IMG/VR virus record: IMGVR_UViG_3300021399_000121
Coordinates: 43,502-107,501 of that record
Origin: a virus
Lineage: Duplodnaviria; Heunggongvirae; Uroviricota; Caudoviricetes
Length of the DNA: 64,000 nt
Reading direction: 5' to 3' (one strand)
Part shown: piece after piece, positions 1-23,398 of the stretch
Numbering within the stretch: position 1 is the first letter of the stretch
How the letters are laid out: each line of letters begins with the position of its first letter
The notes under the pieces: generated by a model
What the model was told of the DNA's origin: nothing
What the model saw: the letters and a program-made list of their open reading frames with translations, nothing else
Databases searched by the model: none
Position numbers and translations under genes: made by a program

Positions 1-3000
1 AAGGGCGAATGATTATGAGTTAAAACTATTTATAGTGATGGTAATATAGCTATTACCAAATCATATATAGGTACAGATGGTCAAGACGGCAATTCTGTTT
101 CTATTGGATCTATTAATAAAGTTAATGGTAAAACAACTATTACACTTATTGATAGTGATGGAACTCAAAGACAGCCAATTGAAATAGAAGATGGTAAAGA
201 TGGTCAACAAGGTATTACGGGGCCAACTGGCGCAGATGGAAAACCATCATATACCCATTTTGCTTGAGCTAATAAAATTGTAATAAAACAAGATAAGTCC
301 ATAGAGCCGCAAAATTCTGGTTTTTCTACTACTATAAGTGCGGGAAAAAGCTATCTTGGTGTTTATACAGATGATAATATCCAAGATTCTGAAGATATTA
401 ATGATTATTCATGAACATTAATTAAAGGTGAAAATGGATATAGTACAGTAAGAATAGTACTGTATAAACGTGCGGCAAGTGAGCCTACCGCGCCATCTGG
501 TACATTAACTTATACTTTTGCTACAAATAGCTTGTCTGGTAATTTGGATGGTTGGTCAATAGAAATCCCAACTGGTAACAATCCTTGTTGAGCTATTGCC
601 GCGACTGCGACGGGTACTGGTAGTACAGATGAAATTAGTAATGAATGAACTTCTCCCGTTAAAGTATTTGAAGATGGTTCCGCAGGTTTAAATCAAGCTA
701 ATATTATGTTATATCAAAGGAGTCTTGCTAAACCAGATAAACCTACAAGTAATCTTACTTATACTTTTGCTACAAATAATTTATCTGGGACTCTTGGAAA
801 TTGAAGTAGAACAATTCCTGCTTCAAATGGTTTGCCTTGTTGAATTACAACAGCTGTAGCAATTTCAACTAATTCTATAGATACAATTGAGCCAAATGAT
901 TGAGCTGACCCAGTTAAATTTGTTGTTGATGGCGAAGATGGTAAAATTTTAAATATCCTTCCAGGTCTTTATAGTGACGATTTTCCTCTTCCTGCTATTG
1001 GAACAGTTCAAGATGGCGATGCTTATCTTTTTGATGATGGCGATGGTCAATATGATCTTTACTATAAAGGTTCTAGAGCTACACAATGGACGATTGTAGA
1101 AAATTGGCAAGGTGTTCAAGGTCCTAAAGGTGAACAGGGTATCCAAGGTGAACAAGGTATTCAAGGTGAGCGAGGGCCGCAAGGTTATTCAATTTCACAA
1201 ATTATAAATTATTATCTTGCAACTTCTGAATCATCAGGTGTAACAATTTCAACAGCTGGATGAAGTACTGACGCAAGTACTCAAATTATGACAGCTACAA
1301 ATAAATATTTATGGAATTATGAAATTACTAAAAACTCTAATAATCAAACAATAAATACTACAAGTCCAATGATTATTGGTGTATATGGTGAAGATGGATC
1401 AACTGGTGAAGATGGTAAAGGTATTGTTTCTATTACAGAATATTATGCTCGTAATAATAGTAATGTAGCTCCTGGAGATAATGACTTTTCTACAACAGTT
1501 GTTGAACCAAATGCAAATAATAGATATTTATGAAATTATGAAATCATTGCTTATACGACTGGTGATCCCTATAAATCAAATAAGCATATTATTGGCGTCT
1601 ATGGTGAAAAAGGAGAGACAGGTGACCAAGGCCCGCGAGGTGAAACTGGTGAAAAGGGTGACACCGGTGCTCAAGGTCCTCAAGGTGAACAAGGGCCAAA
1701 AGGTGATACTCCCGTAATTACAACTACTAAAAATGGTAAAACAACCACCATTAAAGCAGATGGTGCTTCTATTGGTACAATTATAGATGGCGCTGATGGT
1801 CAATCACCAACCGTTTCCAAGAGTGGGAAAGTTGTTACTATTACTGATGCAGCGGGTGCTACTGTTACTATTAGTGATGGTGAAGATGGAACGTCTATTA
1901 AAGGTGATGATGGTGATGATGCTTGATTCCATATAGCTTGAGCTAATAGTGCAGACGGTACTACAGATTTTTCAACTACTGCTGCGGCTAATAAACTATA
2001 TATGGGGACATATACTGACCATATAGAAACAGATTCTCAATCACCTTCAAAATATAAATGAGTAAAAGTTAAAGGTGAACAAGGTGTTCAAGGAGAAAAG
2101 GGTGACACTGGTGTAGGTATACAATCAGTTACAGAGCAATATGTCCGTAATAATAATGGAGAGTCTGCTCCTTTAACTGGTTGAGGGACAACTGTTCTTA
2201 CTCCAATATCATCTGAAAAATATGTTTGAAATCGTGAAATTATTAATTATACAGATGGAACTAGTTCTGATCCGACTCAGCCACACATTATATCAATTTT
2301 TGGTGAACAAGGTACTGCAGGTAAAGGAATTACTTCTATCGTAGAATATTATAAAGTTAATAATTCAACTACGGCTCCGGCAGAAAATGAATTCTCAACT
2401 ACGGTTGCAGTTCCAACTTCAACTAACCGCTATTTGTGAAATTATGAGGTTATAAATTATACTACAGGGAATCCTACAAAAACTGATAGACGAATTATTG
2501 GAGTATATGGTGAGAAAGGTGACCGAGGTTTAACTGGCCCACAAGGTGAGCAAGGGCCTAAAGGCGATACTGGAACAAGTATAACTGTTACATCTAATGT
2601 GACAGAATATACAAGTTCTACAAGTGGAACCATAAAACCAGATTCTGGATGGCAGTCAACTGTTCCAAGTGTAGCTCAGGGTTCTTATTTATGAACAAAA
2701 GTTACTACTATATTTTCAGATTCAACTGAAGCAGTTAGCTATACTGTCTCACGACAGGGTATAAATGGTACTAATGGTACCAATGGAACTTCTGTAACAG
2801 TAAAAAGTATAGAATATAGTTATCAGCTTTCTACCAATGGAACGACACCCCCTCCTGCGGGAGGTTGACAAAGTGATCCGCAAGCACCTACTACAACACA
2901 ATATGCTTGGACAAAAACAGTTACAACTTATAGTGATAATAGTGTAGCTACTACTTATACAGTAGGTGGTAAAACTGGTACTAATGGTACTAGTTCTTAT

Positions 3001-3441
3001 ACTTATGTGCGGTATGGTACTAATTCTTCTGGAGCGGGAATGACCGATACACCAACCGCATCTACTACTTATATTGGTGTATATGTCGGTGATAGCGCTA
3101 CAGCACCTACAACTGCAAATTCATATATTTGATCTAAGTATGTCGGTGATAAAGGAGAAAAAGGTGATAAGGGGGATAAAGGTGACACTGGACAAACTGG
3201 TGCGACTGGCCCTGAAGCCGTTGTAACTATTGTACCTAGTAATATTAATTGAGATAATAATACCGCTACTCTTGGAGTAGTATTGAGAGTTAATGGAGTT
3301 GTAACGACACCAACTTCATATAGTTGAACCAAAACTACAGGTACATTTACAACGGATTTAAATGTTACTACACCTACATTTACATTAGATGGTAGTACAA
3401 ATAAGTTAAATTCTACATATAATTGTACTGTCACATGATAA
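1..3441 (+). CDS. Collagen-like tail-fibre structural protein, 5'-truncated, TGA-recoded. Start lies upstream of the window; stop is TAA at 3439-3441.
   Basis: A single frame (codon phase of position 1) is open across about 3.4 kb only if the roughly 25 in-frame TGA codons are sense. It contains Gly-X-Y collagen runs (1120-1190, 1600-1720, 2510-2580, 3150-3230). The repeated motif RYLWNYEI uses TGG in one copy (1312-1314) and TGA at the same position in others (1531-1533, 2437-2439). YTHFAWAN/WFHIAWANSADG motifs resemble Firmicutes phage tail-fibre motifs. No TAA/TAG occurs in this frame. Confidence 0.6.
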
Positions 3442-3455
3442 GATAAGGAGATAAA

Positions 3456-6400
3456 ATGAGTACACAAACTGGTTCAATTAGTTTTGAATCTACTGGTACA
3501 ATAAGCCAGCATGTAAAACAAAACTATGCGACTTTGTCACAGATAAAAGGACAATTTGCTACAAGTAGTACTGGTGCAAGCACAGCCGCAAAAGTAGCTA
3601 CAATTGTTCCTCAGAATACTGGTTGAACTCTTTATACTGGTGCAACTGTGACAGTAAAATTTACAAGTAAGAATACAACAACAACGGCGCCCACATTAAA
3701 TGTTAATAATACGGGCGCCAAGCCTATTAAAGATTTTAATGGCAATGATTTAGATAGTGATGCTTATAATTGGCCTGCGGGTGCGGCTATGTCATTTACT
3801 TATGATGGAACCTCTTGGAGATTACAAGATAGTGATTTAATGGAACGTGTTCATAGTGCGGAAACAAAAATTGAACAAAATGCAGAAGATATTGCATTAA
3901 GAGCTACTAAAGAAGAAGTTAATAATGCTATAGATGATGTTAAAGTTACTAAATCTACATGTGGTAGAAGTATTGTAACTGAAGATGCTGCAGATTTACC
4001 TTTACTTAATTTAAGTATTTATGGTGAATGCCAGCAGGACGGGACGCCTACGCCAGACGCGCCAGTGGAGATTAGGAGTGTGCGGGGGAGGAACCTGCTG
4101 GACGTGCCAACTATCGATGAGGTAATCGAGAGGGATACGGGCGATAGCGGAACCTACCACACCATGCCGATTCAGCTCAAGCCGAACACGACCTATCACT
4201 TCACACCTTTCGTCGCAGACGGCTACGAAACGAAAATCGCCAACACGTTTATCCTAATCGCCGAATCCAGCAGCAATACCAACTGGAAGTCGTTCGCCCA
4301 TGCTTCGGTAGGAGCGGTAGGCGGCAACCTCAAAACTGGCGAAGATGGCAGGCTGTGGATAAACGTCTACAAGAATTCATCGTGCCGCGAAAACTATCCG
4401 ACCGTCATGGAAAACGTCAAGGGCATGCTCATCGAAGGCGGCGTTGCGGCAACACGCCATACCCCATACGGCACCGTCGCAGTCGTAGCTCGCGGAAGAA
4501 ACGCATGGAACGAAGCCTGGGAACTTGGAGCGTTCAACACGACAACTGGCGCTAACATCAACAATGGCACTCAGATACGCTCGAAGTACAGGCTGGAAGT
4601 GACGCCTGGCGAGACGTACTACATCGCAGCACCGTCGTATATCTGGATGATTTTCTACGACGGACGCAACAACGTCATAACGGAGGTGCCGTCTGGTAGT
4701 TATGCCAAAAACGGTTATTCGATAGGCTGCGGTGCTATTTACAGCCGCACAGTCACGATGCCAGACAATTGCCATAGCGTACGATTCTATTGCCAAAACA
4801 TGTACGGCACCACCTACAACAACGACATCTGCATCAACGTCAGCGACCCAGACTTCAACGGCCAGTACGAACCCTACAGGGAATCCGTGAGCTACATCGA
4901 CCTGAAGGGCGAGGAGCTGTGCAAACACTCGTCCACTGGTTCGAAATACCGCGACGTGCTTACGATTGACGCGAGCGGGCACGTGACGCTTGAGAAGCGC
5001 ACGCAGGTCGAGACGGTGACTGCTGTCGGCACGGCGGGCGGCACCACGACCAAGTACGCCTCTTTGACCGTCACGCCGAGAGCGAAGAGGTGGTCGAGCA
5101 GCGCCGACGCGGCAGCGGACGGCTACGGCAGCCACCTTTGGAACACGATGCTGGCGCAGGACGCAGCCGCCTACATTGGTGCGACGTGGAACAGCCTGTA
5201 CGCCTACGTCCCTCAATCCGAAGAATGGGAGCAAACCGATTTCGACAAGCTCGTGGGGATGAAGCTCGTTGACCTTCTGCCGCCGAAGGATTGGTACACA
5301 ATCGACCTCGGCTACATCGACCCGCCCACCACGTTCGACGGCGGCACCGTCCACGTGGAGGCCGAGATACAACCGCAAATATGTGGTTCATGATGGACAA
5401 AATCTGGTCAAGAAGCAGGTAATGCACATCAATCTTCAGTTAAAGAAAATGCAGAATTACGTATTGCCGCTGATGGAATTACTTCTGAAGTTTCTAAAAT
5501 TTCAAGTGTAAAATATGTTACCACTGTATATAATTATACTTTAACACAAATTAAAACCTATGCGGCAGAAGGGGATTCTTATAATTGAACCATAGCGAGC
5601 GATGATAGCATTAGAGTTGGAGATACTGTATATGTTAAAGTTCAAGATACTACTCGTACTTGCCCAGTATATATTAAAGTTAAAGTTACAGCGATTTCAT
5701 CTCCTGCCAGAATAACTGGTATATCGCATGGTTATGAAGATGTATTACCAGTTGATACTATTAAATCTACTATTAATCAGTCTGCCGATAGCGTTAAGAT
5801 TGCGGCAAATCATGTAGACATTGAGGGTGCCGCAATATTTAGTAGTGGTGGTGCTTATGATAAATCTACTACAGTAGTTAGTACTCAAACACAATGGTAT
5901 AGTTCTACTAGTGCTACATCCAAAAGTGGCGGAAGTTGAGGAACTACTCAACCTACTGTATCAGCTGGCAGATATATATGACAACGTGAGTTAGTAACCT
6001 ATGCTAATGGTACTACGGCTTATAAACCTTCTGAAGCTGGCGTTTGCATTCAAGGTCAAACAGATTTAAGTAGTTATAGCACTACGGCACAAGCAAATAA
6101 TTTATATGATGCTAAAGGTGCGGCAAATACAGTAAATAATGCCCTTGAAAACTATAAATCAACAACAAATACAACTTTACAGTCATTACAAAGTCAAGTT
6201 GATGGTCAAATTGAAGCATGATATATGGATGGAGCTCCCGCAGAAACATCTTATGCGGCAACTGCCACTCCAACAGATAGTGCTGCTAAAACGTGAACTA
6301 CAAAAGAATTAAAAGATAGACACCTCGGTGACATTTATTATGATATTAACACTGGTCATTCTTGGCGTTGGATGGAAGATGGCTCTAATTATAAATGACA

Positions 6401-8429
6401 ACCAATTCCTGACAGTGATGCGACAGCAGCACTAGCCGCAGCACAGGATGCACAAACTATGGCTAATTCCAAGAGAAGGATATTTACAACTCAACCAACA
6501 CCACCTTATGATGAAGGTGATTTATGGGTTAACGGTAGTGAAATTAGATATTGTAATCAACTTAAAACTAATAGCGGTTCTTATGCGGCAAGTGATTGAA
6601 CTTTAACTGCTACTGATGATACTTTAGCCCAGAGTGCTAAAAATATCGCTGATGCGGCGGCTCCAAAAACTTCAGCAGTCTCCCGCACTCAACGAATATA
6701 TTATCGTCAAACTGCCAATGGGGCTAAGCCAGGAATAAATGAAACATGATTAGCTACTAGTGGAACGGGTTATGGTAATTGATCACTTACTGTGCCCCAG
6801 TTAACGAGTGGTAATACTAAATATCCAAAACTTTATACTGCGGTACAAACTCAAACTGTCGCACAGCAAGCTAATAATGGTACTACTTGTTCATGCTCGC
6901 CAGTGCAACTTGATGATTCAACTACTATTATAGATGGTGGAAATATTATCACAGGAAGTGTTGCAGCTAATAAATTAGACGTATATGATGCTACAATTCA
7001 AAAAATTAAATCTAGTGCTATTGATGTTTCAAGTATTAATATTGGTGATTTAGCTGGTGAAATTGGTGGAAGGAATCTTGTTATCCAGGCCACCCGACGA
7101 CTGGGCCGTTGCCAAAACGGGTCTGATGCTGCGTATAATCAAGGCGCTGATGATGGGCAAAAACACTGGCAGTCTGCCCCTATTGCGGTAAAGCCTGGTG
7201 AACAGTATTCGTTGACAACGCATGGCTGGACTGAAGAATCGGGTCACGCTCGATATGTCGCCATGCATTTTACGACAGACGACCTAACGTGGATAAATCG
7301 CCCCGTAATGCAGGCGTGGGCACCAGCGTTCGAAAATTACACATGGACGGTTACTGCTCCCGACAACGCTGCTTTTGCTCGTGTTTCCGCGCCTAAAGAA
7401 GCATATGAAACAAAGATGAAACTCGAAAAGGGCAACAAGCCAACCGACTGGACTCCGGCCCCCGAGGACATAGACTCCGCAATTGACAACGCTAGTAAAG
7501 TTGCTAGTAATTATATTCATACTGATTCAACCGGTATTAATATATATGATAGTAGTCTTACTAATGCTAGTAAATATTATTTAAGACAAACTGCTAGCGG
7601 CACCTATATTTATAGAAATTCATATCTGAAAGCTAAGTATGAAGATACTATTACACTTTATGGTGGTACTGGAGCTACTAATACTAATACAGATGCTAAT
7701 CCAAAAGTAGAGTTAACATCTAGTGATTTTAAAATGACTGATGCGAGTGGTACTCAAAGATTATTGCTTAACTCTACTGACGGTGTTATAATTGGTAATC
7801 CAAATAAAAGTAAGGTACAAATTACTGATGCGGGCATGACTATTTATGATACTAATAAGAAAAAACGTACCGCAATTGATACTTCTGGTTTACATATCTT
7901 TGATGCAAGTAGTACACCTGTAGAAGTTGCACTATTTGGTTCTACTGTTGAAACTGCTGGAACAACAGCTTTTGCAAGAATTGGTGCAAATAATTCATCA
8001 AGATTTGAGATTAGCCCAACCACTTTAAGTGCATACACTGGTACTACTAAATATTTTGAAGTTAGTGCTAGTGGATTAACTTGAGGAAACAATGTGACTG
8101 CAGCATCACAAAATTATGTTACTAGCCAAGGTTATCAAACTTCTAGTCAAGTAACAAATTTAATTAATACTAATCAAAATGTTATAGATGCAAAAAAACA
8201 TACTCAAGTAATTGTTTCAGCAACTAATGTTGATTATACAGCAGACACATGCACATTAACTGCGAGATTATACATAGATGGTGTATTACAAACTGGCACA
8301 TCATTAAAATGACAATGATATAGAGATGGTACTGCTCAAGGAAGTCAAATAACAGGTGCTACAGGAACGTTGAATGTCACATCTACTCTTGGAATAGCTC
8401 ATCGTTATTCTTGTAAATGTACATTCTAG
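3456..8429 (+). CDS. Giant mosaic tail-fibre/tailspike protein (about 1657 codons) in which TGA is read as Trp. It joins standard-code ORFs 3648..5393, 6792..8084 and 8094..8312 in one frame.
   Basis: An AAGGAG ribosome-binding site (RBS) precedes ATG 3456. One frame contains no TAA/TAG until TAG at 8427-8429. About 15 in-frame TGA codons occur, e.g. 3622, 5391, 5586, 5935, 5977, 6217, 6292, 6394, 6595, 6745, 6781, 8082. The protein is Thr/Ser/Asn-rich and fibre-like. It contains embedded GC-rich islands (4015-5395, 7075-7495). Confidence 0.5.
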
Positions 8430-8441
8430 AAAGGAGAAAAT

Positions 8442-10478
8442 ATGGCAGATGAAATAGGTGAGCTTGATTTAACAGCTCAGGCTAGTGCTGCTAAGACTGC
8501 TACTAATTATATGTTTTTTGACTCAACTAACGGACTCAAAATAGCATCTTCTAACCCATCTAGCGCAGAACGTAGAATACAAATTAAATCAAATGGCATC
8601 GGTATATACAATGATAATAATAATTATTCTTATATAGATTCTAACGGTATGAACATTTATAAAAACGGTAATTCTGTTGCCGCCTTTGGTGGTAGTACTA
8701 CTAGAATTGGTGAATCAGATAATCTACATATGACTCTTTTAAATGGTGGCATAAGGATTTATGAAAAAGAAGAAACCCCTTTCGCTGATTCTAGTACAGC
8801 TAAATTTACTGGAACAGAATCTGTCATTGGAGAAGTTAAAGACATTCATACTCAAATTTCATCGAATGGTTTTGGTATTTTAAATGGTGAAACAAAACTT
8901 TTTTCAATAGACACAGAGCAAAAAATGACAACCCATTCTCAAGATAGTTCACGAGAAGTAAAGCAATTAGTTTTTGATGAAGTTATTGGAGAAGGAACTA
9001 TTACAAATTCAACAAATGGTTATCTTAGTGGTAACGGTAATGTTCATACTAGTACTGATGATCCAGAATGATGTTGAATTTCTTCAAGTAAATTAAGAGC
9101 TAAACCTCAAATATTTCTTGATATGGCACAGTATTCAGATGATACTCAAAGAGAATGAGTTCCTATTGAAGAACTTGAAGGATATGCGTATTATAACTAT
9201 ACAGAGCCAGAAATTTATGATTCTGATAATTACCGTTTTTATTTTAGCGTACAAATTTATGATACTAGCTTATTACCTGTTAGATGAAAAATTGGTATTG
9301 CACATTATGAACGAAATTTAACCGTACAAATTGGTAAAAGTAATGAAAGCCACATGGAATTGGATTACCGCAGTCTACAGATGGTGGGCAAAGAAGGCGA
9401 TGCATATTTTAGAGTAAAGGATCTTAGAGATAACAATGGCCTGTACTCGGAGACTGTCGGTCGGCCTCTCGGTCTAACATTTGCTGCTAGTACTTTACCC
9501 AAAGTCGAGTGAGAGTACACGATAACCGACTATAAGGTGAAGCTTGCGAGCGACGGGAGCGATGATACCGCTAACTGACACCTCCAGGAGTCGAATATAT
9601 TAATACGCAATTCTGAGATAACTTCGCAAACTAGATATTTCATAACACTAACTACGAACTCAGAATATGCGAAGTCTTTTACATTCGGCCACAGAGGGTA
9701 CGAAGATGGCGAGATAACTGATGAGATGGAAGGCGGCTTGTCTGCATCCTTCGGTATGTACACATCGGCTACTGGAAGCGCATCTTTCTCAGAAGGAGAA
9801 AGGTCATCGGCATCAGGAGATTGTTCACATGCTCAAGGTGTCGGGACTGCTGCCACAGGGTACTCTTCTCATGCAGAGGGATATGGAACCATTGCGAACG
9901 GCAATTATTCGCACGCCCAAAATAACAGCACTATCGCATCCAGCGATAACCAAACCGCTCTCGGCAAGTATAATATCGAGGATGCCAACAACGAATATGC
10001 TGTAATTATCGGTAACGGCGCCGATGAAGACGATCCCTCTAATGCCCTGGCCGTCAAATGAAATGGCGATGTAGAAATAGACAACGGACGTATTGAGATT
10101 TCCGATAGTGGGTGAATTACTCCAACAATCAATAGCCCATTTGTAAAATATGATAATGCACGCACGCCGAGATACCGCAAGCTCAATGGTATGGTAGAGA
10201 TTCGTGGTGCTGTGAAGCCTACAAGTACAACGGCCATAAATGAAACCGTACGCACGTTATTCACACTCCCCGAAGGCTATCGTCCCACTAATTGCGAAGT
10301 AACAAAATTGTGCCAAGGCTCTAGCCGCAGAATATGGCTTCTTACTGTTAATACGAATGGCACCGTAATGGCAACAAGATTGAGGGATATGGGTGCAACG
10401 ACCTATCAGAGCACAGTCAATAACGAATGAATGATATTCGATGTAGTGTTCATGGCTGGCGGAGAAAACGTCTCATAA
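8442..10478 (+). CDS. Second tail-fibre protein carrying an ...S.A.G..SHAEG... fibre-repeat region, TGA-recoded. An alternative end is at the TGA at 10428-10430.
   Basis: RBS AAAGGAGAAAAT precedes ATG 8442. ORF 8442..9071, ORF 9726..10061 and ORF 10191..10430 share one frame and are linked by sense TGA codons (9069, 9072, 9159, 9282, 9510, 9573, 10059, 10110). The segment 9766-10055 encodes SASGDCSHAQGVGTAATGYSSHAEGYGTIANGNYSHAQ, a repeat typical of phage tail fibres. Confidence 0.5.
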
Positions 10479-10642
10479 AAAATATGTTGTAATTAAGATA
10501 AGACAGCAGTATATCCCATTATACTTATTATATATAAATTAACTAAAAAATTTTTGCATCTGTTAAAAATTTTTACACAAAAACCTATAATCTATATTGG
10601 CTAAAAATTATATATAATAGAAGATAAAAAAGAAAATAAAAG

Positions 10643-10950
10643 GTGGCTAATATGAAAATTATGCGAAAGCTTTATGACCAGTCTATGGAAGAACTAGACG
10701 GTGTAATAGAATATTCTAATTGTGCTACTTCATGTCGAGATAATTCAGATTTATCTAAAATGTACATCAATATGGCTAAGCAAGAATTAGAACATGCACA
10801 AATGTTACATAATATGTCTAAAAAATTAGCTGAAAGTAAGATAGGTGAAAATGTTGATCCTATGCTTATGGAACTTTGAGAAGAGATGGAACAAGCTAAA
10901 ATAGATAAAATGGCTTTAGCAAAAGCATATGTCACCAATGCAGAAGGATA
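10643..10950 (+). CDS. Small hypothetical protein; ORF 10643..10879 extended through an in-frame TGA to TAG.
   Basis: ATG lies behind an A/G-rich RBS. The frame continues past TGA 10877-10879 to TAG at about 10948-10950. Confidence 0.3.
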
Positions 10951-10959
10951 GGTGATTCT

Positions 10960-11374
10960 AATGCCTGTTGGACAATATAATAATTGAACACCAAATAATT
11001 GATCTGGTACATGGCAATGGAATCAACCCTATCAACCGCAAATGTCTTATAATAATAACAACAATAATATACAGCAGCCTGTCAGTAATATTTTACGTGT
11101 AACAGGCCCAGAAAGCGCTAAAGCTTACCCGGTATCTCCAAATTCTGATGTGGTATTATTTGATGGAGAAAAACCTATTTTCTATTGGAAATCTACTGAT
11201 GATAGCGGATTTGCTAGTATAAGAACTTTCACTTTTGAAGAACAAAAACAAGAAGAAGCTCAACCAATAGTTGAACAAATTGATACTTCAAATTTCATTA
11301 CTAGAGATGACTTAAAAGCATTAGAAAAAGATGTCTCTGAACTTAAAGAAATGCTAGAAGGGTTGGTAAATTAA
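10960..11374 (+). CDS. Small Asn/Gln-rich protein with two in-frame TGA codons near its N-terminus (MPVGQYNNWTPNNWSGTWQW...).
   Basis: ATG at about 10960 follows AGGATAGGTGA. The reading is continuous into ORF 11042..11374 when TGA codons at about 10984 and 10999 are sense. Confidence 0.4.
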
Positions 11375-11375
11375 T

Positions 11376-11600
11376 ATGACTAATCCACTATTTGATAAAC
11401 AACCTCAACCTGGAAATCAAGGAATTTTTGGTCTTATGAAACAATTAAAAGGCGGTGGAGCACAACAAATGTTTGATCAAATGTATCAAACGAATCCGCA
11501 ATTTAGAGATTTTGCTAATTCTATGAAAGGCAAAACTCCAGAACAAGCCTTCCAAGAGAGAGGGTTTGATTTTAATTCCTTTAAAGGTATGATAAATTAG
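11376..11600 (+). CDS. Hypothetical 74-aa protein.
   Basis: ORF track entry; the ATG overlaps the upstream stop (TAATATG). Confidence 0.4.
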   Translation: MTNPLFDKQPQPGNQGIFGLMKQLKGGGAQQMFDQMYQTNPQFRDFANSMKGKTPEQAFQERGFDFNSFKGMIN

Positions 11601-11662
11601 GTAACTACTAACAATAGTTAGTGGAAGATATACAAATTATCAAACGAAAGGATGATAACGTT

Positions 11663-12337
11663 ATGGCTGATATGACTTTAAGTGATATTGCTGCTCTAAA
11701 TCATGATAATGACGGTTGGGGAGGCGGTTGCTGGTGAGTTATTGTACTCTTCGCCCTCATTTTTGGTTGGGGTAATAATGGATTTGGCAACAATGGTTTT
11801 GCTAATGCAATTGGCTATGAAAATCTTGCAACTTCTAATGAAGTACAACGTGGTTTTGATAATCAAAACAGCATGGCAAATCAGCGTGAAATCCTTGCTG
11901 CGGTTAATGCTGGTACCGCACAATCTGTTGCAACCACAAATCAGACATTCCATGATATGCTAGGTGCTCTTAGTGATAAATACATGGAACTACAGCGTGA
12001 CATTGCGGGTTTAGCAGTTGGCCAAGCCAATGCTCTTGCTAATCAAAATCAATGTTGCTGTGACACTAAGATGCTAATTCAGGAGAATGCGGCACAGCAA
12101 CGTTATGAATCTGCTATGCAGAACAATGCTGTTATTCAAGCAATTCAAGCTGAAGGTGCTGCTACTCGTGAAATGTATCAGCAAGATAAGATTGAAGCAC
12201 TACAGAATCGTGTTAATCAATTACAGCTAGATCAAGCTATGCAAGGTGTTGTACGTTATCCTAACATGTTTGCATATAATGCTGGCGCCAATCCATTCTG
12301 CGGTTGCGGTAATGGTGGTTGCTGCGGCAATATTTAA
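11663..12337 (+). CDS. Gly/Cys-rich protein with one hydrophobic segment (VIVLFALIFGWG) and a C-terminal CGCGNGGCCGN tail. It contains one in-frame TGA.
   Basis: ATG 11663 lies behind GAAAGGATGA. It is in frame with ORF 11873..12337 when TGA at about 11735 is sense. Confidence 0.4.
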
Positions 12338-12356
12338 TTAAAAATAGTTAGGGGTA

Positions 12357-12824
12357 ATGTTATACATTACCCCTTATTACTATGTCATTCTCGACAAGGA
12401 AGGAAATTACAAAATGACTTGTAAATCCGCAATTTATACTACAAATGATACTGGTACTACTGTTACAGTTACTAATGATATTCCTGTTCAAGTACCTTAT
12501 GGTGCAATAATTCGTCGCTTTGGTCAAAATGTTCAATCACAAGGTGGCTCAATCCAATGTTGTGGTGCTGGATATTTTGATGTAGATCAAATTTTAACTG
12601 TCACACCAACTGAGGCAGGCCCAATTACAGCTAGACTTTATCAAGACGATAAACCTATCCGTGGAGCTTTTATGACTCTTACAGGAGAAGCTAATACTCC
12701 AATAGCTCTTCCAATTAAAGCTCTTATCCGTAATTGTGGATGTGATTGTAGTAGTGTTTTAACAATAACAATTGATGGTAGTTGTGTTATTAATAACTTC
12801 CCAGCAGTTGTAAAGAAACTTTAA
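12357..12824 (+). CDS. Hypothetical 155-aa protein. The true start may be ATG at about 12414, behind AAGGAAATTACAAA.
   Basis: ORF track entry. Confidence 0.4.
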   Translation: MLYITPYYYVILDKEGNYKMTCKSAIYTTNDTGTTVTVTNDIPVQVPYGAIIRRFGQNVQSQGGSIQCCGAGYFDVDQILTVTPTEAGPITARLYQDDKPIRGAFMTLTGEANTPIALPIKALIRNCGCDCSSVLTITIDGSCVINNFPAVVKKL

Positions 12825-12853
12825 AATGACAAGGCGATTGTTAGAAATTTTTC

Positions 12854-12883
12854 TTGACAATCGCCTATATTTTATTTTATAAT
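12854..12883 (+). promoter_or_regulatory. Sigma70-type promoter (TTGACA, 18-nt spacer, TATAAT) firing into an ORF-free block.
   Basis: TTGACA at 12854-12859 and TATAAT at 12878-12883. Confidence 0.5.
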
Positions 12884-12899
12884 ATTTATAGAAAATAAA

Positions 12900-13500
12900 G
12901 ATATACTTTATTTTTATTTGCTCATCTTCCAAGAGAAGAAAGAGTTGCGAGAACGTGCGGTAATGCGTTCTCAGAAATGGTCGCTTCGTGCGGCAACATC
13001 GCATCTAAGGAAAGCCTGCGATGGGACGAAAGTCTTGGGCTCCGGACATATACTATAGTTGGTGGTGAGAAACCCAACACAGGGGTTGGAATCCCCTCCT
13101 GATGAACATCATCGTGCGTGACTGAGCTGCTTTAAGGTTGACGTATATGCCTATGGTCCTCCCGCGCAACAAATAAACAAAATGCGAACACGTGGGAAGT
13201 ATGCCCCGGACCAGAGTAAACTGGGAAGAATTAAATTATATTAAAGTGGATTGAATGCCGCAATGTTTAGGAGGGGCAGGTTCAAATCCTGCTTATGCTA
13301 TAAGCATAAAAGTGTCTTGACTGGCGGAATGGCCTAAACTAAGTTGCTGAGAATGTAACCGAGTCTTGCCGCAAGGGCTAAGTTAGTAGAAATAATGCGG
13401 ACGTGTTTTAATAGGTACACGAACAACACCTATTATTTAAAACAATATAGGGTTTACATAAGTAAGCCCTATTTTTTTTATTGTCTTTAAAAAGTTATAG
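12900..13500 (+). ncRNA. Candidate structured ncRNA. The block is ORF-free, GC-elevated and promoter-driven.
   Basis: No ORF of 60 aa or more in any frame. GC is about 50% against a 35% background. It contains a T-arm-like element GCAGGTTCAAATCCTGC and several hairpins. It lies between two promoters. Confidence 0.3.
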
Positions 13501-13527
13501 ACAGCCGCAATTAATCTATGATATAAT
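13498..13527 (+). promoter_or_regulatory. Early promoter of the conserved family (TAGACA, 18-nt spacer, TATGATATAATATATTTATAAAG).
   Basis: TAGACA at 13498-13503 and TATAAT at 13522-13527; AAAGGGAAATATG follows. Confidence 0.6.
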
Positions 13528-13551
13528 ATATTTATAAAGAGAAAGGGAAAT

Positions 13552-13986
13552 ATGAATAAACGTGATTATAGATTTTTTGGATTGGCTCGTCAAGAAGCAT
13601 TGCGATCGTCTTTTGATAGATTCCATCTTGGTTGTGTAATTACTTATAAAGGTCGAGTAATTGGACGCGGCTCTAATTCAGATAAAACAGATCCATTACA
13701 AAAACGATATAACAAAGAGCGTAAATTTAATAAATGCGGCACGCAGCCTATAAAACATAGCGTTCATGCAGAAATTGCCGCACTTAAATCAATTCCTTAT
13801 CCAATCCAAGAGTCAATAGATTGGAGTAAAGTAAAGGTCTATATTTATAGAATCGCTGTTGGGAAAAAATTGCATATGGGACTTGCTCGTCCATGCGCAG
13901 GATGTATGAAAGCATTGCGAGATAAGGGCATTCAAAAAATTCTTTATACAACAAATGACGGTTTTGCATGTGAAAGGATTTTTTAA
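13552..13986 (+). CDS. Zinc-dependent cytidine/dCMP deaminase-fold protein.
   Basis: The motifs HAEIAAL and PCAGCMKAL match the H(A/C)E and PCxxC signature of the CDA fold. Confidence 0.55.
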   Translation: MNKRDYRFFGLARQEALRSSFDRFHLGCVITYKGRVIGRGSNSDKTDPLQKRYNKERKFNKCGTQPIKHSVHAEIAALKSIPYPIQESIDWSKVKVYIYRIAVGKKLHMGLARPCAGCMKALRDKGIQKILYTTNDGFACERIF

Positions 13987-14213
13987 TGACAAAATGGAAG
14001 GAATTTGCAGATATTACTGGCTTAAGCATTATCAGTACTATTGGTGAAGCTGCATGGACAGGATTTTTAGTATCTACTACCAAAAAGATTCCTCATATTG
14101 GAATTCCAGTTGCAGCAATATTAGGAATAACAGGAATGTTAGGTACTTTATGGTTTGCTAATGCTTGGAGATTTGCTTATCAAGATTGGTATAAAGAATA
14201 TTATACTAGGTAA
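13986..14213 (+). CDS. Small membrane protein with two predicted TM helices.
   Basis: ORF track entry; hydrophobic segments LSIISTIGEAAWTGFLV and IPVAAILGITGMLGTLWF. Confidence 0.45.
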   Translation: MTKWKEFADITGLSIISTIGEAAWTGFLVSTTKKIPHIGIPVAAILGITGMLGTLWFANAWRFAYQDWYKEYYTR

Positions 14214-14674
14214 TAAATTTTAGTAGACAGGTGGTATAATTACATGGTATAATATATTTATAATAAAGACCTAGACCGTATTGCTTATTTTTAAGCTAAG
14301 AAGCCAAAAGGTGATGGTTTGCCCTGGTCAGGCTGCAAATATAGGTAATGCCACTTATATTCTAAGACAATTACTATTACGAGAGCGCAGTACGGAACTT
14401 AGTCGGAGAGTGATCGGCACATGGCATTGTGTGGAAAAACGAGGGCGCTTTACCGCATGCTTCGGACTAAGGAAGTTAAAATGAGAGAGGTTCTTCAGGG
14501 TCAAAACCTTATTACTCCGCAGAGTAGACCAGCAGCTTATTGGTCATTAATAATAAAAGCCCTCTTCACTACTGCGGCTCTGGTGATGTTAAGTGCGGTT
14601 GTCCTAAGATTTTAGTGGACGACCGCATTATTTTTATGCTATAATATATTTATGAGGAAGAGAAAGGATATATT

Positions 14675-21165: not shown

Positions 21166-22600
21166 TAAGGTTGAGAGAGTTAATAAGGTGCTTCTAAAGA
21201 AGAAACACAATATTAGGTTTCTTAACCTAATAACCTTGAAAACAGAATAGTTGAAGATTTAGGTGCAACTCAGTGCAGAGCGGTGTCAACGTGCTGAGGG
21301 TTCTTCTCAATGAGTTGAGACTCCTGAAGGATACTTCCGCAGTCAAGCTTTAAGGTGAATCGTGAGGTTTACTTTAGAAGGTAGGAACTACCAACAAAAT
21401 GAAGAATGCGCTTAGTCTATTTGCTAAGGAAAGATACTTGTAAATTGTCGTCTCCGCAATAGACGCCCCAGTGGGGAAGAATCCAGAACACTTATTAACA
21501 GGTGGTGCTGAATAAGAAAAAGCTGGAAATACCAATAAGGAGATTGAGCTGTTGACTCTCTGGTAACAGAGGGAATAAGACAAGGGCAAGGTTCGAGTAG
21601 CACAAAGCAGCTCCTTATATTAATGAATATTAGGAGAATATATTAATGCTGAAAGACGTGTGAAAGTTGTGGGTAATCATTCCTACGGTAGAGATGGCCT
21701 TAACGGCTGGGGTAAGAAGTATGACGGTCGCTCCGATATACTCAGCCTTATCTCCTACATGATCGAATATCCAGTAAATAGATGCGGTACAGTGAAGACT
21801 GGCATGTATATCTTCAACTATTCTGTTTGAAGGAATTGACGTAATAGTTCGTTCGCGTCATTAAATAAAACGGCATCCTGGTTAGGCAGGTTTATAAAAG
21901 AGAGTAGCCTAACATGCTCTCTAGTGTGATTTAGTGTATACAGAGTAAGGCTTTTTATTGCTGATTGGCCCGCTGCGTACTTCTTGACATGGTTAAAAAC
22001 CGCAGAAAAGAATTCAGCAACCCGGAAGATTGGTCTAAGACTGTGCTAGGAAAAGGCTAAAAAGACTAGTTACGTAACTGGTATGCGGACACCGCTCGGT
22101 AGAGAAAGTCCGCAACGTAGCTTAAAGGGCTGAGATAACTGCTAAACAGTTTATGCCTTAGAGGGCATTTATAAAAAATGCTTTCTTAGGTATATTTAAT
22201 GCCAGTGTAGTGAGAATCGACTACACTATAAAATAAAATCATGATTCTCTGGTTTTGAAATCACCTGAACCAAAAAGAATTTCTGTTTTTATGTGTTTGA
22301 ACGAAATCAAGTACATCCCGCGCAAGATAGGGTGATGATCTTGCCGCAAGTCTATGCGTAAAGTAAAGATCGCTTGTAGGTTAAGAGCGTCAGAACCTTC
22401 TGTAGTTTATACTTTCTCTACGATAAGGGTGGTGCCTATGAAAGTATCTTCTCTTGGAGGATATACCTATATATCTAAAAATCATATCAGCCATAACGGG
22501 TATATCTTCCAAAAGGAGTAATCCTATTGTCGTTGCGAGCATGCCGATAAGACGTTAAACTATTTCGTATGCGGTGGTCGTGTTACACCTTACCCAACAC
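21166..22600 (+). ncRNA. Candidate large structured ncRNA of the GOLLD/ROOL class by genomic context.
   Basis: About 1.4 kb with no ORF longer than about 70 aa in six frames. GC is about 45-50%. A consensus promoter lies directly upstream and the 17-tRNA array directly downstream. Confidence 0.35.
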
Positions 22601-22609: not shown

Positions 22610-22685
22610 GGCCTTGTAGTTAAGTTGGTTATAATAATTGTCTTGTAAACAATAGTCCTCAGTTCGAATCTGTGCGAGGCCTCCA
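22610..22685 (+). tRNA. tRNA-Thr (anticodon TGT).
   Basis: Cloverleaf folded by hand: acceptor GGCCTTG/CGAGGCC, anticodon loop CTTGTAA, T-loop TTCGAAT, CCA encoded. Confidence 0.6.
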
Positions 22686-22688
22686 TAC

Positions 22689-22763
22689 CGGGCGTTAGTG
22701 AAGCGGTTATCACAATGGTCTGTCTAACCATTATCACGGGTTCGATTCCCGTACGCCTGGCCA
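22689..22763 (+). tRNA. tRNA-Asp (anticodon GTC); tentative.
   Basis: D-stem GTGA/TCAC, anticodon stem ATGGT/ACCAT with loop CTGTCTA, T-arm ACGGGTTCGATTCCCGT, CCA encoded. Confidence 0.45.
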
Positions 22764-22766
22764 TAT

Positions 22767-22853
22767 GCCGAAGTCGCATAGTCTGGTCAATTGCATCGCG
22801 CTGTAAACGCGACGGCTCGTCCTGCGGGAGTTCAAATCTCTCCTTCGGCACCA
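22767..22853 (+). tRNA. tRNA-Tyr (anticodon GTA), type II with a long variable arm.
   Basis: Acceptor GCCGAAG/CTTCGGC, anticodon loop CTGTAAA, long variable arm, CCA encoded. Confidence 0.6.
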
Positions 22854-22862
22854 GTTAATTAC

Positions 22863-22940
22863 ACCCCAGTAGCTCAGTCTGAAAAGAGCATTGCGCTACG
22901 GACGCAAGTGTCGTGGGTTTGAATCCTACCTGGGGTGCCA
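22863..22940 (+). tRNA. tRNA-Arg (anticodon ACG).
   Basis: Acceptor ACCCCAG/CTGGGGT (7 bp), D-arm TAGCTCAGT, loop CTACGGA, CCA encoded. Confidence 0.6.
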
Positions 22941-22949
22941 ATAATCAAT

Positions 22950-23024
22950 GGGAGTCTAGCTGAGATGGATTAGCAAGGGTCTGAAAAGCCCTGGAGGAGG
23001 GATCGTTACCTTCGGCTCCCACCA
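22950..23024 (+). tRNA. tRNA-Phe (anticodon GAA) with an atypical T-loop, ATCGTTA.
   Basis: Acceptor GGGAGTC/GGCTCCC, anticodon stem AGGGT/GCCCT with loop CTGAAAA, CCA encoded. Confidence 0.5.
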
Positions 23025-23025
23025 T

Positions 23026-23100
23026 GCGGGGTTAGCTCAATGGTGGAGCAGAGGACTCATAATCCTTTGGCTGTAGGTTCAAATCCTACACTCCGCACCA
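23026..23100 (+). tRNA. tRNA-Met/fMet (anticodon CAT).
   Basis: Acceptor GCGGGGT/ACTCCGC, loop CTCATAA, T-loop TTCAAAT, CCA encoded. Confidence 0.6.
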
Positions 23101-23103
23101 AAT

Positions 23104-23180
23104 GCGCTTGTAGCAGAATTGGCATATGCACCGGACTCAAAATCCGGGATTTGTGAGTTCGACTCTCACCAGGCGCACCA
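23104..23180 (+). tRNA. tRNA with a tRNA-Trp-like body but anticodon loop CUCAAAA (nominal anticodon CAA) on a type I scaffold. It is a candidate recoding tRNA.
   Basis: Its anticodon stem CCGGA/TCCGG and T-arm GTGAGTTCGACTCTCAC closely resemble bacterial tRNA-Trp. A CAA anticodon on a short-variable-arm tRNA is anomalous. CCA is encoded. Confidence 0.45.
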
Positions 23181-23183
23181 AAT

Positions 23184-23264
23184 GCCCTTGTGGTGGAATT
23201 GGAAGACACGCGTGCCTTAGGAGCACGTGCTTAGGCGTGGGGGTTCGAATCCCTCCAGGGGCAG
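23184..23264 (+). tRNA. tRNA-Leu (anticodon TAG), type II.
   Basis: Acceptor GCCCTTG/CAGGGGC, anticodon stem CGTGC/GCACG with loop CTTAGGA, long variable arm. Confidence 0.55.
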
Positions 23265-23325
23265 TTGCGAGAATCAGAAACCTCCACGTGGTTCGCAATG
23301 GTTAACACTAATATCTGATATTTAT

Positions 23326-23396: not shown

Positions 23397-23398
23397 CC

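What the first reader, a model, noticed from the sequence alone, without database searches (positions are those of the whole stretch)
4015..10440. GC-rich islands embedded in-frame in the AT-rich tail-fibre genes
Inside the giant fibre gene 3456..8429, segments 4015-5395 (about 60% GC) and 7075-7495 (about 58% GC) are flanked by about 33% GC sequence without breaking the frame. The C-terminal half of the next fibre gene (about 9340-10440) is also GC-shifted. The two strong islands encode Trp only with TGG (about 14 Trp, no TGA), unlike the flanks. The 3' junction of island A falls exactly at a recoded TGA (5391-5393). This looks like recent in-frame acquisition of receptor-binding modules from a standard-code, GC-rich donor.
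Basis: seen in the sequence. Interest (0 to 1): 0.65.

Follow-up and report, generated by a model that had tools for sequence, protein, structure and literature searches.

The report
Foreign GC-rich cassettes in phage tail fibres
An AT-rich rumen-type phage that reads the stop codon TGA as tryptophan carries, spliced in-frame into its tail-fibre genes, GC-rich domain cassettes that came from ordinary-code, GC-rich phages; this is a clean example of the well-known swapping of host-recognition modules, not a new kind of system.

Summary
Inside the TGA-recoded fibre ORF 3456-8429, third-codon-position GC jumps from 0.14 (backbone) to 0.74 in island A (4029-5366) and 0.51 in island B (7083-7490). 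In island C (9348-10472, next ORF) it is 0.45. GC2 does not change, so amino-acid composition is not the cause.

A near-identical relative (L005/L006/L008; 14 differences in window 1-3900) carries unrelated sequence exactly at A, B and the middle of ORF3. Breakpoints lie in conserved linker motifs (TPDAPVEIRSVRGRNL; IDLGYID...EIQPQICGSWWTK). These are therefore exchangeable cassettes.

The commonest domain of island A tracks local GC in 19 standard-code contigs, so its GC-richness here is imported. A 455-nt piece of A is 84% identical to a 64% GC contig; a related 64% GC contig (L029) demonstrably uses standard code.

Islands A and B use TGG only (16 Trp), against 41 TGA : 13 TGG in the late-gene backbone. 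Island C contains TGA codons and does not look like a standard-code import. The TGA at 5391 lies 25 nt beyond the composition switch, in a conserved WW motif; it is not a junction scar.

No close donor was found, and the window's own cassette has no independent assembly.

Verdict: ordinary tail-fibre mosaicism with an unusually sharp composition and genetic-code contrast. Interest is moderate to low.

The parts
1..3441 (+). 3' part of a collagen-repeat tail-fibre ORF (cut at the window start). AT-rich, with 23 in-frame TGA. Serves as backbone reference.
   Evidence: ORF, TGA list; PHROG tail-fibre families, E down to 1e-77; the W of the recurrent YLWNYE motif is encoded by TGG twice and TGA five times, so TGA = Trp.
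3456..8429 (+). Giant tail-fibre ORF, 1657 aa, with 14 in-frame TGA. Contains islands A and B.
   Evidence: residues 829-1078 hit PHROG tail-protein families. Relatives have 1710-3296 aa versions.
3456..4028 (+). AT-rich N-terminal anchor of the giant fibre (GC3 about 0.14-0.20). Differs from relative L005 at only a handful of positions up to 3919.
3990..4097 (+). 5' linker motif LPLLNLSIYGECQQDGTPTPDAPVEIRSVRGRNL. The AT-to-GC switch is at 4029. Positions 4050-4097 are identical to L005, and similarity ends at 4098.
   Evidence: codon view and alignment; the motif is 46-63% identical in P0014, P0043, P0044, P0056; 77% nt identity to L002 and L004 over this stretch.
4029..5366 (+). Island A: GC-rich cassette, 57% GC, GC3 0.74, 10 TGG and 0 TGA. 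It is itself mosaic. The 5' domain (about 4098-4480) is poorly modelled. Window 4485-4880 encodes a CBM-like domain of the WDEEWELG...YGTTYNNDICIN family and is 73% nt-identical to L001. Window 4866-5320 is 84.4% nt-identical to the 64% GC contig L004.
5300..5425 (+). 3' linker motif IDLGYIDPPTTFDGGTVHVEAEIQPQICGSWWTKSGQEAGNAH. The GC-to-AT switch is at about 5366. The TGA at 5391-5393 encodes the first W of a conserved WW. Positions 5352-5425 are identical to L005.
   Evidence: P0006 and P0017 carry WW at this position; the table-11 fragments P0010, P0004 and P0014 end there.
7083..7490 (+). Island B: about 136-aa domain cassette, 53% GC, GC3 0.51, 6 TGG and 0 TGA. It ends in the conserved motif MKLEKGNKPTDWTPAPEDI. 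L005 carries an unrelated, longer domain here.
   Evidence: similarity to L005 collapses over about 7080-7414; 2218 proteins with E<=1e-3, mostly 1000-5500 aa with several copies each; 39% identity to P0009 residues 207-341.
8442..10478 (+). Second fibre ORF, 678 aa, with 9 TGA and 1 TGG. The C-terminal part resembles receptor-binding tail proteins.
   Evidence: phrog_7127 'receptor binding tail protein' at residues 560-657, and phrog_25468.
8507..10004 (+). Segment of ORF3 that cannot be aligned with L005. It is AT-rich with 4 TGA up to about 9340, then moderately GC-rich. L005 has a strongly GC-rich (GC3 0.60-0.85), TGA-free segment here instead.
9348..10472 (+). Island C: moderate GC shift (46% GC, GC3 0.45) with 5 TGA and 1 TGG. 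Its 3' part (10005-10478) is shared with L005 at 85-99% identity per 100-nt block.

Best explanation
The islands are exchangeable domain cassettes of phage tail-fibre (host-recognition) proteins.

The phage is an AT-rich (36% GC) siphophage of the roughly 120-150 kb class. It infects a Gram-positive (Bacillota) host and reads TGA as Trp in its late genes. Its fibre proteins are strings of beta-sandwich domains joined by short linker motifs. Those motifs are conserved across many phages, including GC-rich, standard-code ones.

Recombination within or next to the linkers replaces the domain(s) between them without breaking the frame. Cassettes A and B originated in GC-rich (about 60-64% GC) standard-code phage or prophage genomes. 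That is why they keep GC3 of 0.5-0.86 and contain no TGA. After entry, cassettes are passed between members of the AT-rich clade and slowly drift toward AT and acquire TGA. Island C and the alternative cassettes of relatives look like such older or intra-clade pieces.

The likely functional result is a changed receptor (probably glycan) specificity.

Shown: the composition step, the swap relative to a near-identical phage, breakpoints at conserved motifs, GC of the domain family tracking its genome, and the TGA deficit.

Inferred: the recombination mechanism, the direction and timing of transfer, receptor binding, and the host.
For: 1. The shift sits at third codon positions: backbone 0.14, A 0.74, B 0.51, with GC2 unchanged.

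2. L005, L006 and L008 are three assemblies of one relative. They differ from the window at 14 positions in 1-3900 and are about 97% identical over 10100-14373. They cannot be aligned at 4098-5299, about 7080-7414 and 8507-10004. Identical stretches 4050-4097 and 5352-5425 bracket cassette A.

3. The alternative cassettes in L005 have other GC levels: A' GC3 0.41-0.64, B' 0.31-0.40 with TGA, and the ORF3 N-terminal part 0.60-0.85 without TGA. More distant relatives (L007, L035, L036) have no or only mild GC elevation at slot A, while L035 has a GC-rich island at another fibre position.

4. In 19 standard-code contigs, the GC3 of the island-A domain follows local GC: 0.21-0.26 in 27-34% GC loci and 0.5-0.63 in 53-61% GC loci.

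5. Window 4866-5320 matches L004 (64% GC, GC3 0.89) at 84.4% nt without gaps. Third-position differences lean toward AT in the window, 22 to 11.

6. L029 (64% GC) has a homologous fibre gene and the motif-bearing next gene as separate standard-code genes, with a TGA stop overlapping the next ATG.

7. Trp codons: A+B have 0 TGA and 16 TGG, against 41:13 in the backbone. Across four related phages, stretches with GC3 >= 0.5 have 7 TGA and 42 TGG although only 53% of Lys/Glu/Gln codons end in G.

8. TGA = Trp. In-frame TGA occurs only in late genes, as described for code-4 gut phages (bioRxiv 10.1101/2021.08.26.457843).

Against: - No donor closer than 84% nt over 455 nt was found. The rest of island A has at most 54-64% aa identity to anything in the databases. 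GenBank phages give no match at the DNA or protein level.
- Island B has no homologue above about 46% identity over its full length.
- The window's own cassette A was not found in any other assembly. Its linkage to the backbone therefore rests on this one sequence.
- GC-rich linker edges are shared with L005, and the exchanged tract includes AT-rich flank. The last event was thus probably intra-clade, and 'recent acquisition from a GC-rich donor' is two steps, not one.
- Which of the window and L005 carries the derived cassette cannot be decided.
Confidence: 0.77

Rival explanations
1. Assembly chimera. The assembler left the AT-rich phage at the shared 48-nt linker, ran through a co-occurring GC-rich phage's fibre gene, and returned at the next shared linker. 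Cassette A would then not be physically part of this phage.
For: The linkers flanking the cassette are identical over 48 and 74 nt between different haplotypes. That is long enough to join paths in a de Bruijn graph. The window's cassette was not recovered in any other assembly.
Against: - The AT/GC junctions at 4029 and about 5366 are present in three other assemblies (L005, L006, L008), and similar ones occur in L002/L003. Such hybrids therefore exist.
- The window haplotype already differs from L005 in the AT-rich stretch 3920-4049 (20 differences in 130 nt) and in 5300-5351. That fits a real variant of the same phage, not a detour through a GC-rich genome.
- The frame and the domain architecture are intact.
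Confidence: 0.07
2. Intrinsic cause. The high GC3 is maintained in place by selection (codon or mRNA requirements of these domains) or by GC-biased gene conversion at a recombination hot spot, without any GC-rich donor.
For: - The cassette slots of several relatives are GC-elevated to differing degrees (L005, L002, L001).
- The locus is a recombination hot spot, with at least five mosaic blocks between genomes that are 99.6% identical upstream.
Against: - The same domain family has GC3 of 0.21-0.26 in AT-rich standard-code genomes.
- Relatives L007, L035 and L036 have no or only mild elevation at slot A.
- The AT-rich part of ORF3 (8507-9340) is also swapped without any GC gain.
- Homologous sequence exists in uniformly 64% GC contigs.
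- The TGA deficit exceeds what GC3 bias predicts.
Confidence: 0.05
3. The donor of A and B was another TGA-recoded phage of higher GC. The absence of TGA would then be a by-product of composition and small numbers, not evidence for a standard-code origin.
For: - Island C and L005's cassette B' are GC-shifted yet contain TGA.
- The last exchange was probably within the clade.
- Early genes of this same phage also use only TGG while being AT-rich, so TGG-only usage is not in itself foreign.
Against: - All-TGG has p = 0.004 for each island under the local A/G third-position preference.
- Pooled over four phages, 42 of 49 Trp codons in GC-rich stretches are TGG, against 53% G-ending Lys/Glu/Gln codons.
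- L029, a 64% GC relative in hand, uses TGA as a stop; L004, the other, shows no in-frame TGA in its homologous gene.
Confidence: 0.1
4. Programmed variation. The islands would be variable regions of a diversity-generating retroelement, or alternative segments of an invertible (Gin/Cin-type) fibre switch.
For: Phage fibre C-terminal domains are common targets of both systems (established knowledge).
Against: - No template/variable-repeat pair touches the islands in a whole-window direct-repeat search.
- No inverted repeats flank them; only two short weak pairs occur elsewhere.
- Opposite-strand ORFs in the islands have no family match and are the shadow ORFs expected in GC-rich DNA.
- The variation against L005 is wholesale replacement, not point changes at adenines.
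Confidence: 0.01

Closest known systems
Modular exchange of tail-fibre / receptor-binding protein domains by recombination at conserved motifs. From my own knowledge, not checked here: T-even gp37/gp38 adhesin swapping between conserved motifs, and P2/Mu/P1 fibre mosaics. Papers seen only as search listings (title and abstract start): PMC10579305, PMC10408124.
   Same: - A conserved N-terminal anchor with replaceable distal domains.
- Breakpoints at short conserved motifs.
- Near-identical phages that differ only in these segments.
- Cassettes shared with otherwise unrelated phages.
   Different: - The composition contrast is extreme: GC3 0.14 against 0.74-0.86 within one ORF.
- The cassettes sit in the interior of a 1657-aa multi-domain fibre rather than only at its tip.
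- The exchange crosses a genetic-code boundary.
TGA-recoded (code 4) animal-gut phages with recoding confined to structural and lysis genes (Borges et al., bioRxiv 10.1101/2021.08.26.457843; clades such as Agate, including a cattle-derived genome).
   Same: - Low GC.
- In-frame TGA only in late genes.
- Standard-code early genes.
- A Firmicutes-type host.
- Relatives on contigs up to 151 kb, from sheep-rumen and other rumen-type metagenome samples.
   Different: - Clade membership was not tested.
- No UCA suppressor tRNA lies within these 64 kb.
- The passages of that paper retrieved here do not mention TGA-free, GC-rich cassettes inside recoded genes. The paper was searched by terms only, not read in full.
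Compositional (GC3 / codon-usage) islands as markers of horizontal transfer followed by amelioration. This is the classical bacterial-genome concept, cited from established knowledge.
   Same: - An abrupt GC3 step with unchanged GC2.
- Codon usage typical of the donor.
- A mild AT-ward asymmetry of third-position differences relative to the GC-rich homologue (22 to 11).
   Different: - The unit transferred is a sub-genic domain cassette joined in-frame, not a gene or an operon.
- TGA content provides a second, code-based marker in addition to GC.

Membership tests
Modular tail-fibre / RBP cassette exchange | The segment lies in a phage tail-fibre or receptor-binding protein gene. | tested here: met
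   PHROG tail-fibre, tail-protein and receptor-binding families hit the three ORFs. Homologues of island A are fibre-like proteins on phage contigs that also carry terminase, portal and holin genes.
Modular tail-fibre / RBP cassette exchange | Close relatives share flanks but carry unrelated sequence in the segment. | tested here: met
   Window against L005/L006/L008: 99.6% identity over 1-3900 and about 97% over 10100-14373, but 26-50% (unalignable) at 4098-5299, 7080-7414 and 8507-10004.
Modular tail-fibre / RBP cassette exchange | Breakpoints coincide with conserved linker motifs or domain boundaries, and the frame is kept. | tested here: met
   Breakpoints lie in TPDAPVEIRSVRGRNL, in IDLGYID...EIQPQICGSWW, and in GGRNL / MKLEKGN..TDWTPAPEDI. 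All of these are conserved in distant homologues.
Modular tail-fibre / RBP cassette exchange | The swapped domain binds the host receptor. | tested here: inconclusive
Code-4 (TGA to Trp) recoded gut/rumen phage | Reading TGA as sense restores long ORFs in late genes, while early genes lack in-frame TGA. | tested here: met
   Summed length of ORFs of 150 aa or more rises from 9670 to 16949 aa when TGA is read as sense. TGA is concentrated in 1-12 kb and 59-63 kb, and almost absent from 12-46 kb.
Code-4 (TGA to Trp) recoded gut/rumen phage | TGA aligns with Trp, not Gly, at conserved positions. | tested here: met
   The W of the recurrent motif YLWNYE / YxWTK is encoded by TGG twice and by TGA five times. 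The TGA at 5391 aligns with W of the WW motif in P0006 and P0017.
Code-4 (TGA to Trp) recoded gut/rumen phage | A phage-encoded suppressor tRNA with anticodon UCA. | tested here: not met
   There are 19 tRNAs in the window and none has a UCA anticodon. tRNA-Trp has CCA, and the extra tRNA at 23326-23396 is Gln(UUG). The window is only part of the genome, and only 35% of code-4 phages had a detectable suppressor in the survey read. This does not exclude membership.
Diversity-generating retroelement target | A template repeat and a variable repeat that differ at adenines, plus a reverse transcriptase. | tested here: not met
   No repeat pair involves the islands. Reverse transcriptase genes were not searched for systematically.
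Invertible fibre segment (Mu G / P1 C type) | Inverted crossover repeats flanking alternative fibre ends on opposite strands, plus an invertase. | tested here: not met
   Only two short weak inverted pairs were found, and neither is at the island borders. Opposite-strand ORFs have no family match.

The most novel reading that the evidence does not exclude
Stop-codon recoding acts as a one-way valve for gene flow. A TGA-recoded phage can read any standard-code cassette, so it harvests host-recognition domains from standard-code (here GC-rich) phages. Its own TGA-containing late-gene segments cannot function in standard-code phages.

TGA density together with residual GC3 would then work as a double clock for how long a cassette has resided in the recoded lineage. 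On that scale A would be the youngest, then B, then C.

A stronger corollary is that the AT-rich phage and the GC-rich donors meet in the same cell. The 36% GC phage would then infect a host, or co-infect with phages of a host, that is more than 20 GC points richer than itself.
Probability: 0.25. Interest if true: 0.6.

Novelty: new member of a known kind. Interest (0 to 1): 0.35.

Why it matters
This is a very clean natural example of sub-genic, in-frame domain exchange in phage host-recognition proteins. The foreign origin can be read directly from two independent marks, synonymous-site GC and the absence of the recoded codon.

- For annotation: giant fibre genes of recoded phages are broken into fragments by standard gene callers. 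Several database 'proteins' (P0004, P0010, P0014) are such fragments ending at TGA.
- For phage ecology: recoded rumen/gut phages appear to draw on the receptor-binding repertoire of standard-code phages. The conserved linker motifs mark natural splice points that could guide engineering of chimeric fibres.

It does not reveal a new mechanism.

Tried and rejected
- **Hypothesis that the TGA at 5391 is the donor gene's stop codon, read through to fuse two fibre genes.** It was suggested by P0010 and P0004 ending there. Rejected because those proteins are table-11 fragments of other recoded phages. P0006 and P0017 carry WW at that position, and the stretch 5352-5425 is identical in L005.
- **Amino-acid composition as the cause.** Rejected: GC2 is unchanged, and the domain is AT-rich in AT-rich genomes.
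- **blastn and tblastn of island A, and megablast of window 1-12000, against GenBank phages.** No match.
- **Exact searches of IMG/VR for a junction 38-mer and a linker 35-mer.** No match.
- **Pfam on seven pieces of the fibre ORFs.** No hit.
- **Foldseek of the island A model against the PDB.** Nothing significant.
- **Word-indexed protein search with island B.** One partial hit only. The exhaustive HMMER search then showed a very large repeated-domain family, but no close relative.
- **Protein search with the N-terminal anchor, to collect more cassette variants.** It returned only short fragments. Two of them gave useful distant relatives, L035 and L036.
- **First alignment for the genome scan.** Too diverse to use; it was replaced by a six-sequence domain alignment.
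- **Backbone query in IMG/VR and in metagenome contigs.** One locus each.
- **Hirsh-type tRNA-Trp idea.** I checked whether the phage tRNA-Trp(CCA) could be a UGA reader of the Hirsh type through its 11:24 pair. It has U11:A24. By my recollection that pair is normal in Bacillota tRNA-Trp, so it is not informative.
- **DGR and invertible-segment models.** Not supported.

Full report
**1. Observation**

The window is 36.4% GC. Under the bacterial code its first 10.5 kb is broken into fragments. Reading TGA as sense gives three long plus-strand ORFs:
- 1-3441, cut at the window start.
- 3447-8429, with ATG at 3456, 1657 aa.
- 8430-10478, with ATG at 8442, 678 aa.

A 300-nt profile shows GC rising from 0.33-0.40 to 0.51-0.64 over about 4050-5400, to 0.51-0.52 over about 7050-7500, and to 0.43-0.50 over about 9300-10500. 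CUSUM change-points on third positions place the islands at 4029-5366 (A), 7083-7490 (B) and 9348-10472 (C).

The shift is at synonymous sites. Backbone GC1/GC2/GC3 is 0.43/0.47/0.14. Island A is 0.51/0.47/0.74, island B has GC3 0.51 and island C has GC3 0.45. Fisher p values for GC3 run from 5e-123 to 3e-21, and GC2 is unchanged. Within A, GC3 is about 0.67 in the 5' part and 0.77-0.86 in the 3' part.

**2. Genetic code**

TGA means Trp here. The W of a motif that recurs in the fibre proteins (YLWNYE / YxWTK) is encoded by TGG twice and by TGA five times. The TGA at 5391 aligns with the first W of a WW pair in P0006 and P0017.

In-frame TGA is confined to the fibre genes (1-12 kb) and to 59-63 kb, which holds a sigma-factor-like gene and the large terminase. 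Genes between 12 and 46 kb use TGG almost exclusively. This is the pattern described for code-4 phages of animal guts, where recoding is limited to structural and lysis genes (bioRxiv 10.1101/2021.08.26.457843).

**3. Trp codons in the islands**

A has 10 TGG and B has 6 TGG, and neither has a TGA. The late-gene backbone has 41 TGA and 13 TGG (Fisher p = 8e-6 and 5e-4). A GC3-rich segment would prefer TGG anyway, so I compared with the local share of G-ending Lys/Glu/Gln codons (0.57 in A, 0.41 in B). All-TGG then has p = 0.004 for each island.

Pooled over four related phages, fibre stretches with local GC3 >= 0.5 have 7 TGA and 42 TGG, although only 53% of Lys/Glu/Gln codons there end in G. 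Island C is different, with 5 TGA and 1 TGG.

**4. The decisive comparison**

Protein search with island A found only distant relatives, at most 50% identity. Two of them, P0010 and P0004, align to residues 65-646 of the giant ORF. They turned out to be table-11 fragments, bounded by in-frame TGA codons, of other recoded phages.

The contig of P0010 (L005, sample label SHIW14), together with L006 (Logan run SRR873596) and L008, is a near-identical relative of the window. The comparison shows:
- 14 differences in window 1-3900.
- About 97% identity over 10100-14373.
- 97-100% identity in most 100-nt blocks between the islands, and 61-92% in several short mosaic patches (5500-5800, 6700-6900, 7500-7700, 8200-8400).
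- Collapse to 26-50% (unalignable) at 4098-5299, about 7080-7414 and 8507-10004.

The alignment at the edges is very clean. Both phages share the identical GC-rich 48-mer at 4050-4097, which encodes TPDAPVEIRSVRGRNL, and then diverge completely. They come together again at 5300 (IDLGYID...) and are identical over 5352-5425.

Island B is bounded by GGRNL on one side and by MKLEKGN..TDWTPAPEDI on the other. These motifs are conserved in distant homologues, including GC-rich ones.

The islands are therefore cassettes that differ between otherwise almost identical phages, with breakpoints at conserved inter-domain linkers.

**5. Is the GC-richness imported or intrinsic?**

Four lines of evidence point to import.

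- *The alternative cassettes in L005 have other compositions.* A' has GC3 0.41-0.64. B' has GC3 0.31-0.40 and contains TGA. The N-terminal part of L005's ORF3 has GC3 0.60-0.85 and no TGA, whereas the window is AT-rich there.
- *More distant clade members differ again.* These are L007, L035 and L036 (73-77% nt identity, with giant fibre ORFs of 2948-3296 aa). They show no or only mild elevation at slot A. L035 has a GC-rich island at the C-terminal end of its fibre instead. L002/L003 have a GC3 0.55-0.70 cassette at slot A.
- *The commonest domain of island A follows the GC of its genome.* This is the WDEEWELG...YGTTYNNDICIN domain (giant residues about 345-480). It was located in 19 standard-code MAG contigs, labelled Acutalibacteraceae, Lachnospiraceae, Oscillospiraceae, Bacteroidales and others. 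Its GC3 is 0.21-0.26 in loci of 27-34% GC and 0.5-0.63 in loci of 53-61% GC.
- *A matching GC-rich sequence exists.* Window 4866-5320 matches L004, a 64% GC contig, at 84.4% nt and 82% aa without gaps. L004 has GC3 0.89 there against 0.81 in the window. Third-position differences lean toward AT in the window, 22 to 11.

A related 64% GC contig, L029 (sample label STEW19), carries a 607-aa fibre gene, then a 364-aa homologue of cassette A, then a gene with the GRNLL...MKLEYG..PAPEDL motifs. All are separate standard-code genes, and a TGA stop overlaps the next ATG.

**6. Two layers of exchange**

The divergent tract between the window and L005 starts at about 3920, roughly 110 nt upstream of the AT-to-GC switch. 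There are 20 differences in 3920-4049, against 14 in the 3900 nt before. The tract ends at about 5351. The GC-rich linker edges are shared.

The last exchange was therefore most likely between two AT-rich clade members that each already carried a GC-rich cassette. The original entry of GC-rich DNA, marked by the scar at 4029, was an earlier event or events. I cannot tell which of the two phages carries the derived state.

**7. The TGA at 5391**

I first suspected a read-through donor stop codon, because several homologues end there. That is wrong. Those homologues are truncated gene calls. The WW is conserved, and the composition switch is 25 nt upstream. This TGA is simply the first Trp codon in native-type sequence after the cassette.

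**8. What the cassettes are**

- Pfam finds nothing.
- PHROGs label the ORFs as tail fibre, tail protein and receptor-binding tail protein.
- An AlphaFold model of island A is confident for residues about 150-450 and is all-beta.
- Foldseek finds nothing significant.
- Island B belongs to a huge family: 2218 proteins at E <= 1e-3. Most are 1000-5500 aa and have up to 11 copies each.

Glycan-binding receptor recognition is a reasonable inference, but it is not shown.

**9. The phage and its surroundings**

- The terminase is 43-53% identical to those of 120-142 kb siphophages of Enterococcus, Geobacillus and Alicyclobacillus, to an unannotated human-faecal 'Bacteriophage sp.' record (53%, the best hit), and to the TAG-recoded gut phage phAss-1.
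- The window encodes an LPSTG-anchored surface protein.
- It carries more than 15 copies of a TTGAC-N17-TGnTATAAT promoter, 19 tRNAs and a ROOL RNA.
- Relatives come from samples whose labels point to rumen studies. Reading the labels this way is my own interpretation.

A Gram-positive Bacillota host in a rumen-type habitat is the best guess.

**10. Rivals**

- *Assembly chimera.* A chimera through the shared linkers cannot be formally excluded for the window's own cassette, because I found no second assembly of it. However, the hybrid junctions themselves are seen in several independent assemblies, and the window haplotype already differs in the AT-rich flank.
- *Intrinsic maintenance of GC3.* This is contradicted.
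- *A recoded donor.* This is disfavoured by the TGA statistics and by L029's use of TGA as a stop.
- *DGR or invertible-segment models.* No repeats support either.

**11. Verdict**

This is tail-fibre domain shuffling, which is well known. It is seen here with an unusually sharp synonymous-site contrast and across a genetic-code boundary. It is a new member of a known kind.

The more interesting reading remains open: that recoding makes gene flow one-directional, and that TGA density plus GC3 date the imports.

Noticed in passing
window 21245-21821 (+): A full-length ROOL RNA (Rfam RF03087, 331 bits, E 2e-75) sits just upstream of the tRNA cluster.
   Followed up: no
window 22610-25154 and 30118-30294 (+): 19 tRNA genes. 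ARAGORN finds 18. Rfam adds one at 23326-23396 with anticodon loop CUUUGGC, i.e. Gln(UUG), and an odd T-loop. None has a UCA anticodon. tRNA-Trp at 24891-24964 has CCA, so no TGA suppressor is visible in these 64 kb.
   Followed up: partly
window 12843-47104 (+), about 20 sites, e.g. 13495, 14605, 15427, 21119, 29304, 39511, 45728: A strongly conserved promoter-like element, TTGAC-N17-TATGnTATAAT, followed by AAGGAG. It precedes the TGA-free early/middle genes and does not occur inside the fibre genes.
   Followed up: no
window 47000-59000: About 12 kb at 40-48% GC with reversed GC skew and almost no long ORF under either code. It is filled with repeat families: 33-nt-spaced ACATAATTAATTCA / TTGTGGAGATTTTGTGGAGAT iteron-like units at 55.0-57.5 kb, and five hairpin units TTTTTCCC...AATTCGCT...GCGCTGAA at 47.9-53.3 kb. 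No Rfam family matches. Unexplained.
   Followed up: partly
window 25262-27016 (+): A 584-aa phage ORF without TGA. It has a signal peptide and a C-terminal LPSTG sortase motif followed by a hydrophobic stretch and KKKTKE. This is a cell-wall-anchored surface protein, which points to a Gram-positive host.
   Followed up: no
window 59213-63293 (+): Late-type genes rich in in-frame TGA: a sigma-factor-like protein with a C-terminal zinc/HNH-like tail (6 TGA), a phrog_3314 protein (4 TGA) and the large terminase (5 TGA).
   Followed up: partly
L005 9032-14164; L002 9800-17719; L007 5429-14272; L035 4892-14047; L036 1355-11245: The fibre ORFs of clade members are fused or split differently (1657 to 3296 aa). 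In the GC-rich standard-code contig L029, homologous parts are separate genes with ATGA stop/start overlaps.
   Followed up: partly
proteins P0004, P0010, P0014 (database entries): These public 'proteins' are artefacts of table-11 gene calling on TGA-recoded phages. They begin after one in-frame TGA and end at the next, at ...CGS* or ...SW*.
   Followed up: yes
window 5500-5800, 6700-6900, 7500-7700, 8200-8400: Additional short mosaic patches, 61-92% identical to L005, lie within otherwise 97-100% identical AT-rich fibre sequence. Recombination at this locus therefore also shuffles AT-rich (intra-clade) pieces.
   Followed up: partly
window 4254-5456 (-) and 9905-10264 (-): Long opposite-strand ORFs inside the GC-rich islands (400 aa when TGA is read as sense). 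They have no family match and are best read as shadow ORFs of GC-rich coding DNA.
   Followed up: yes
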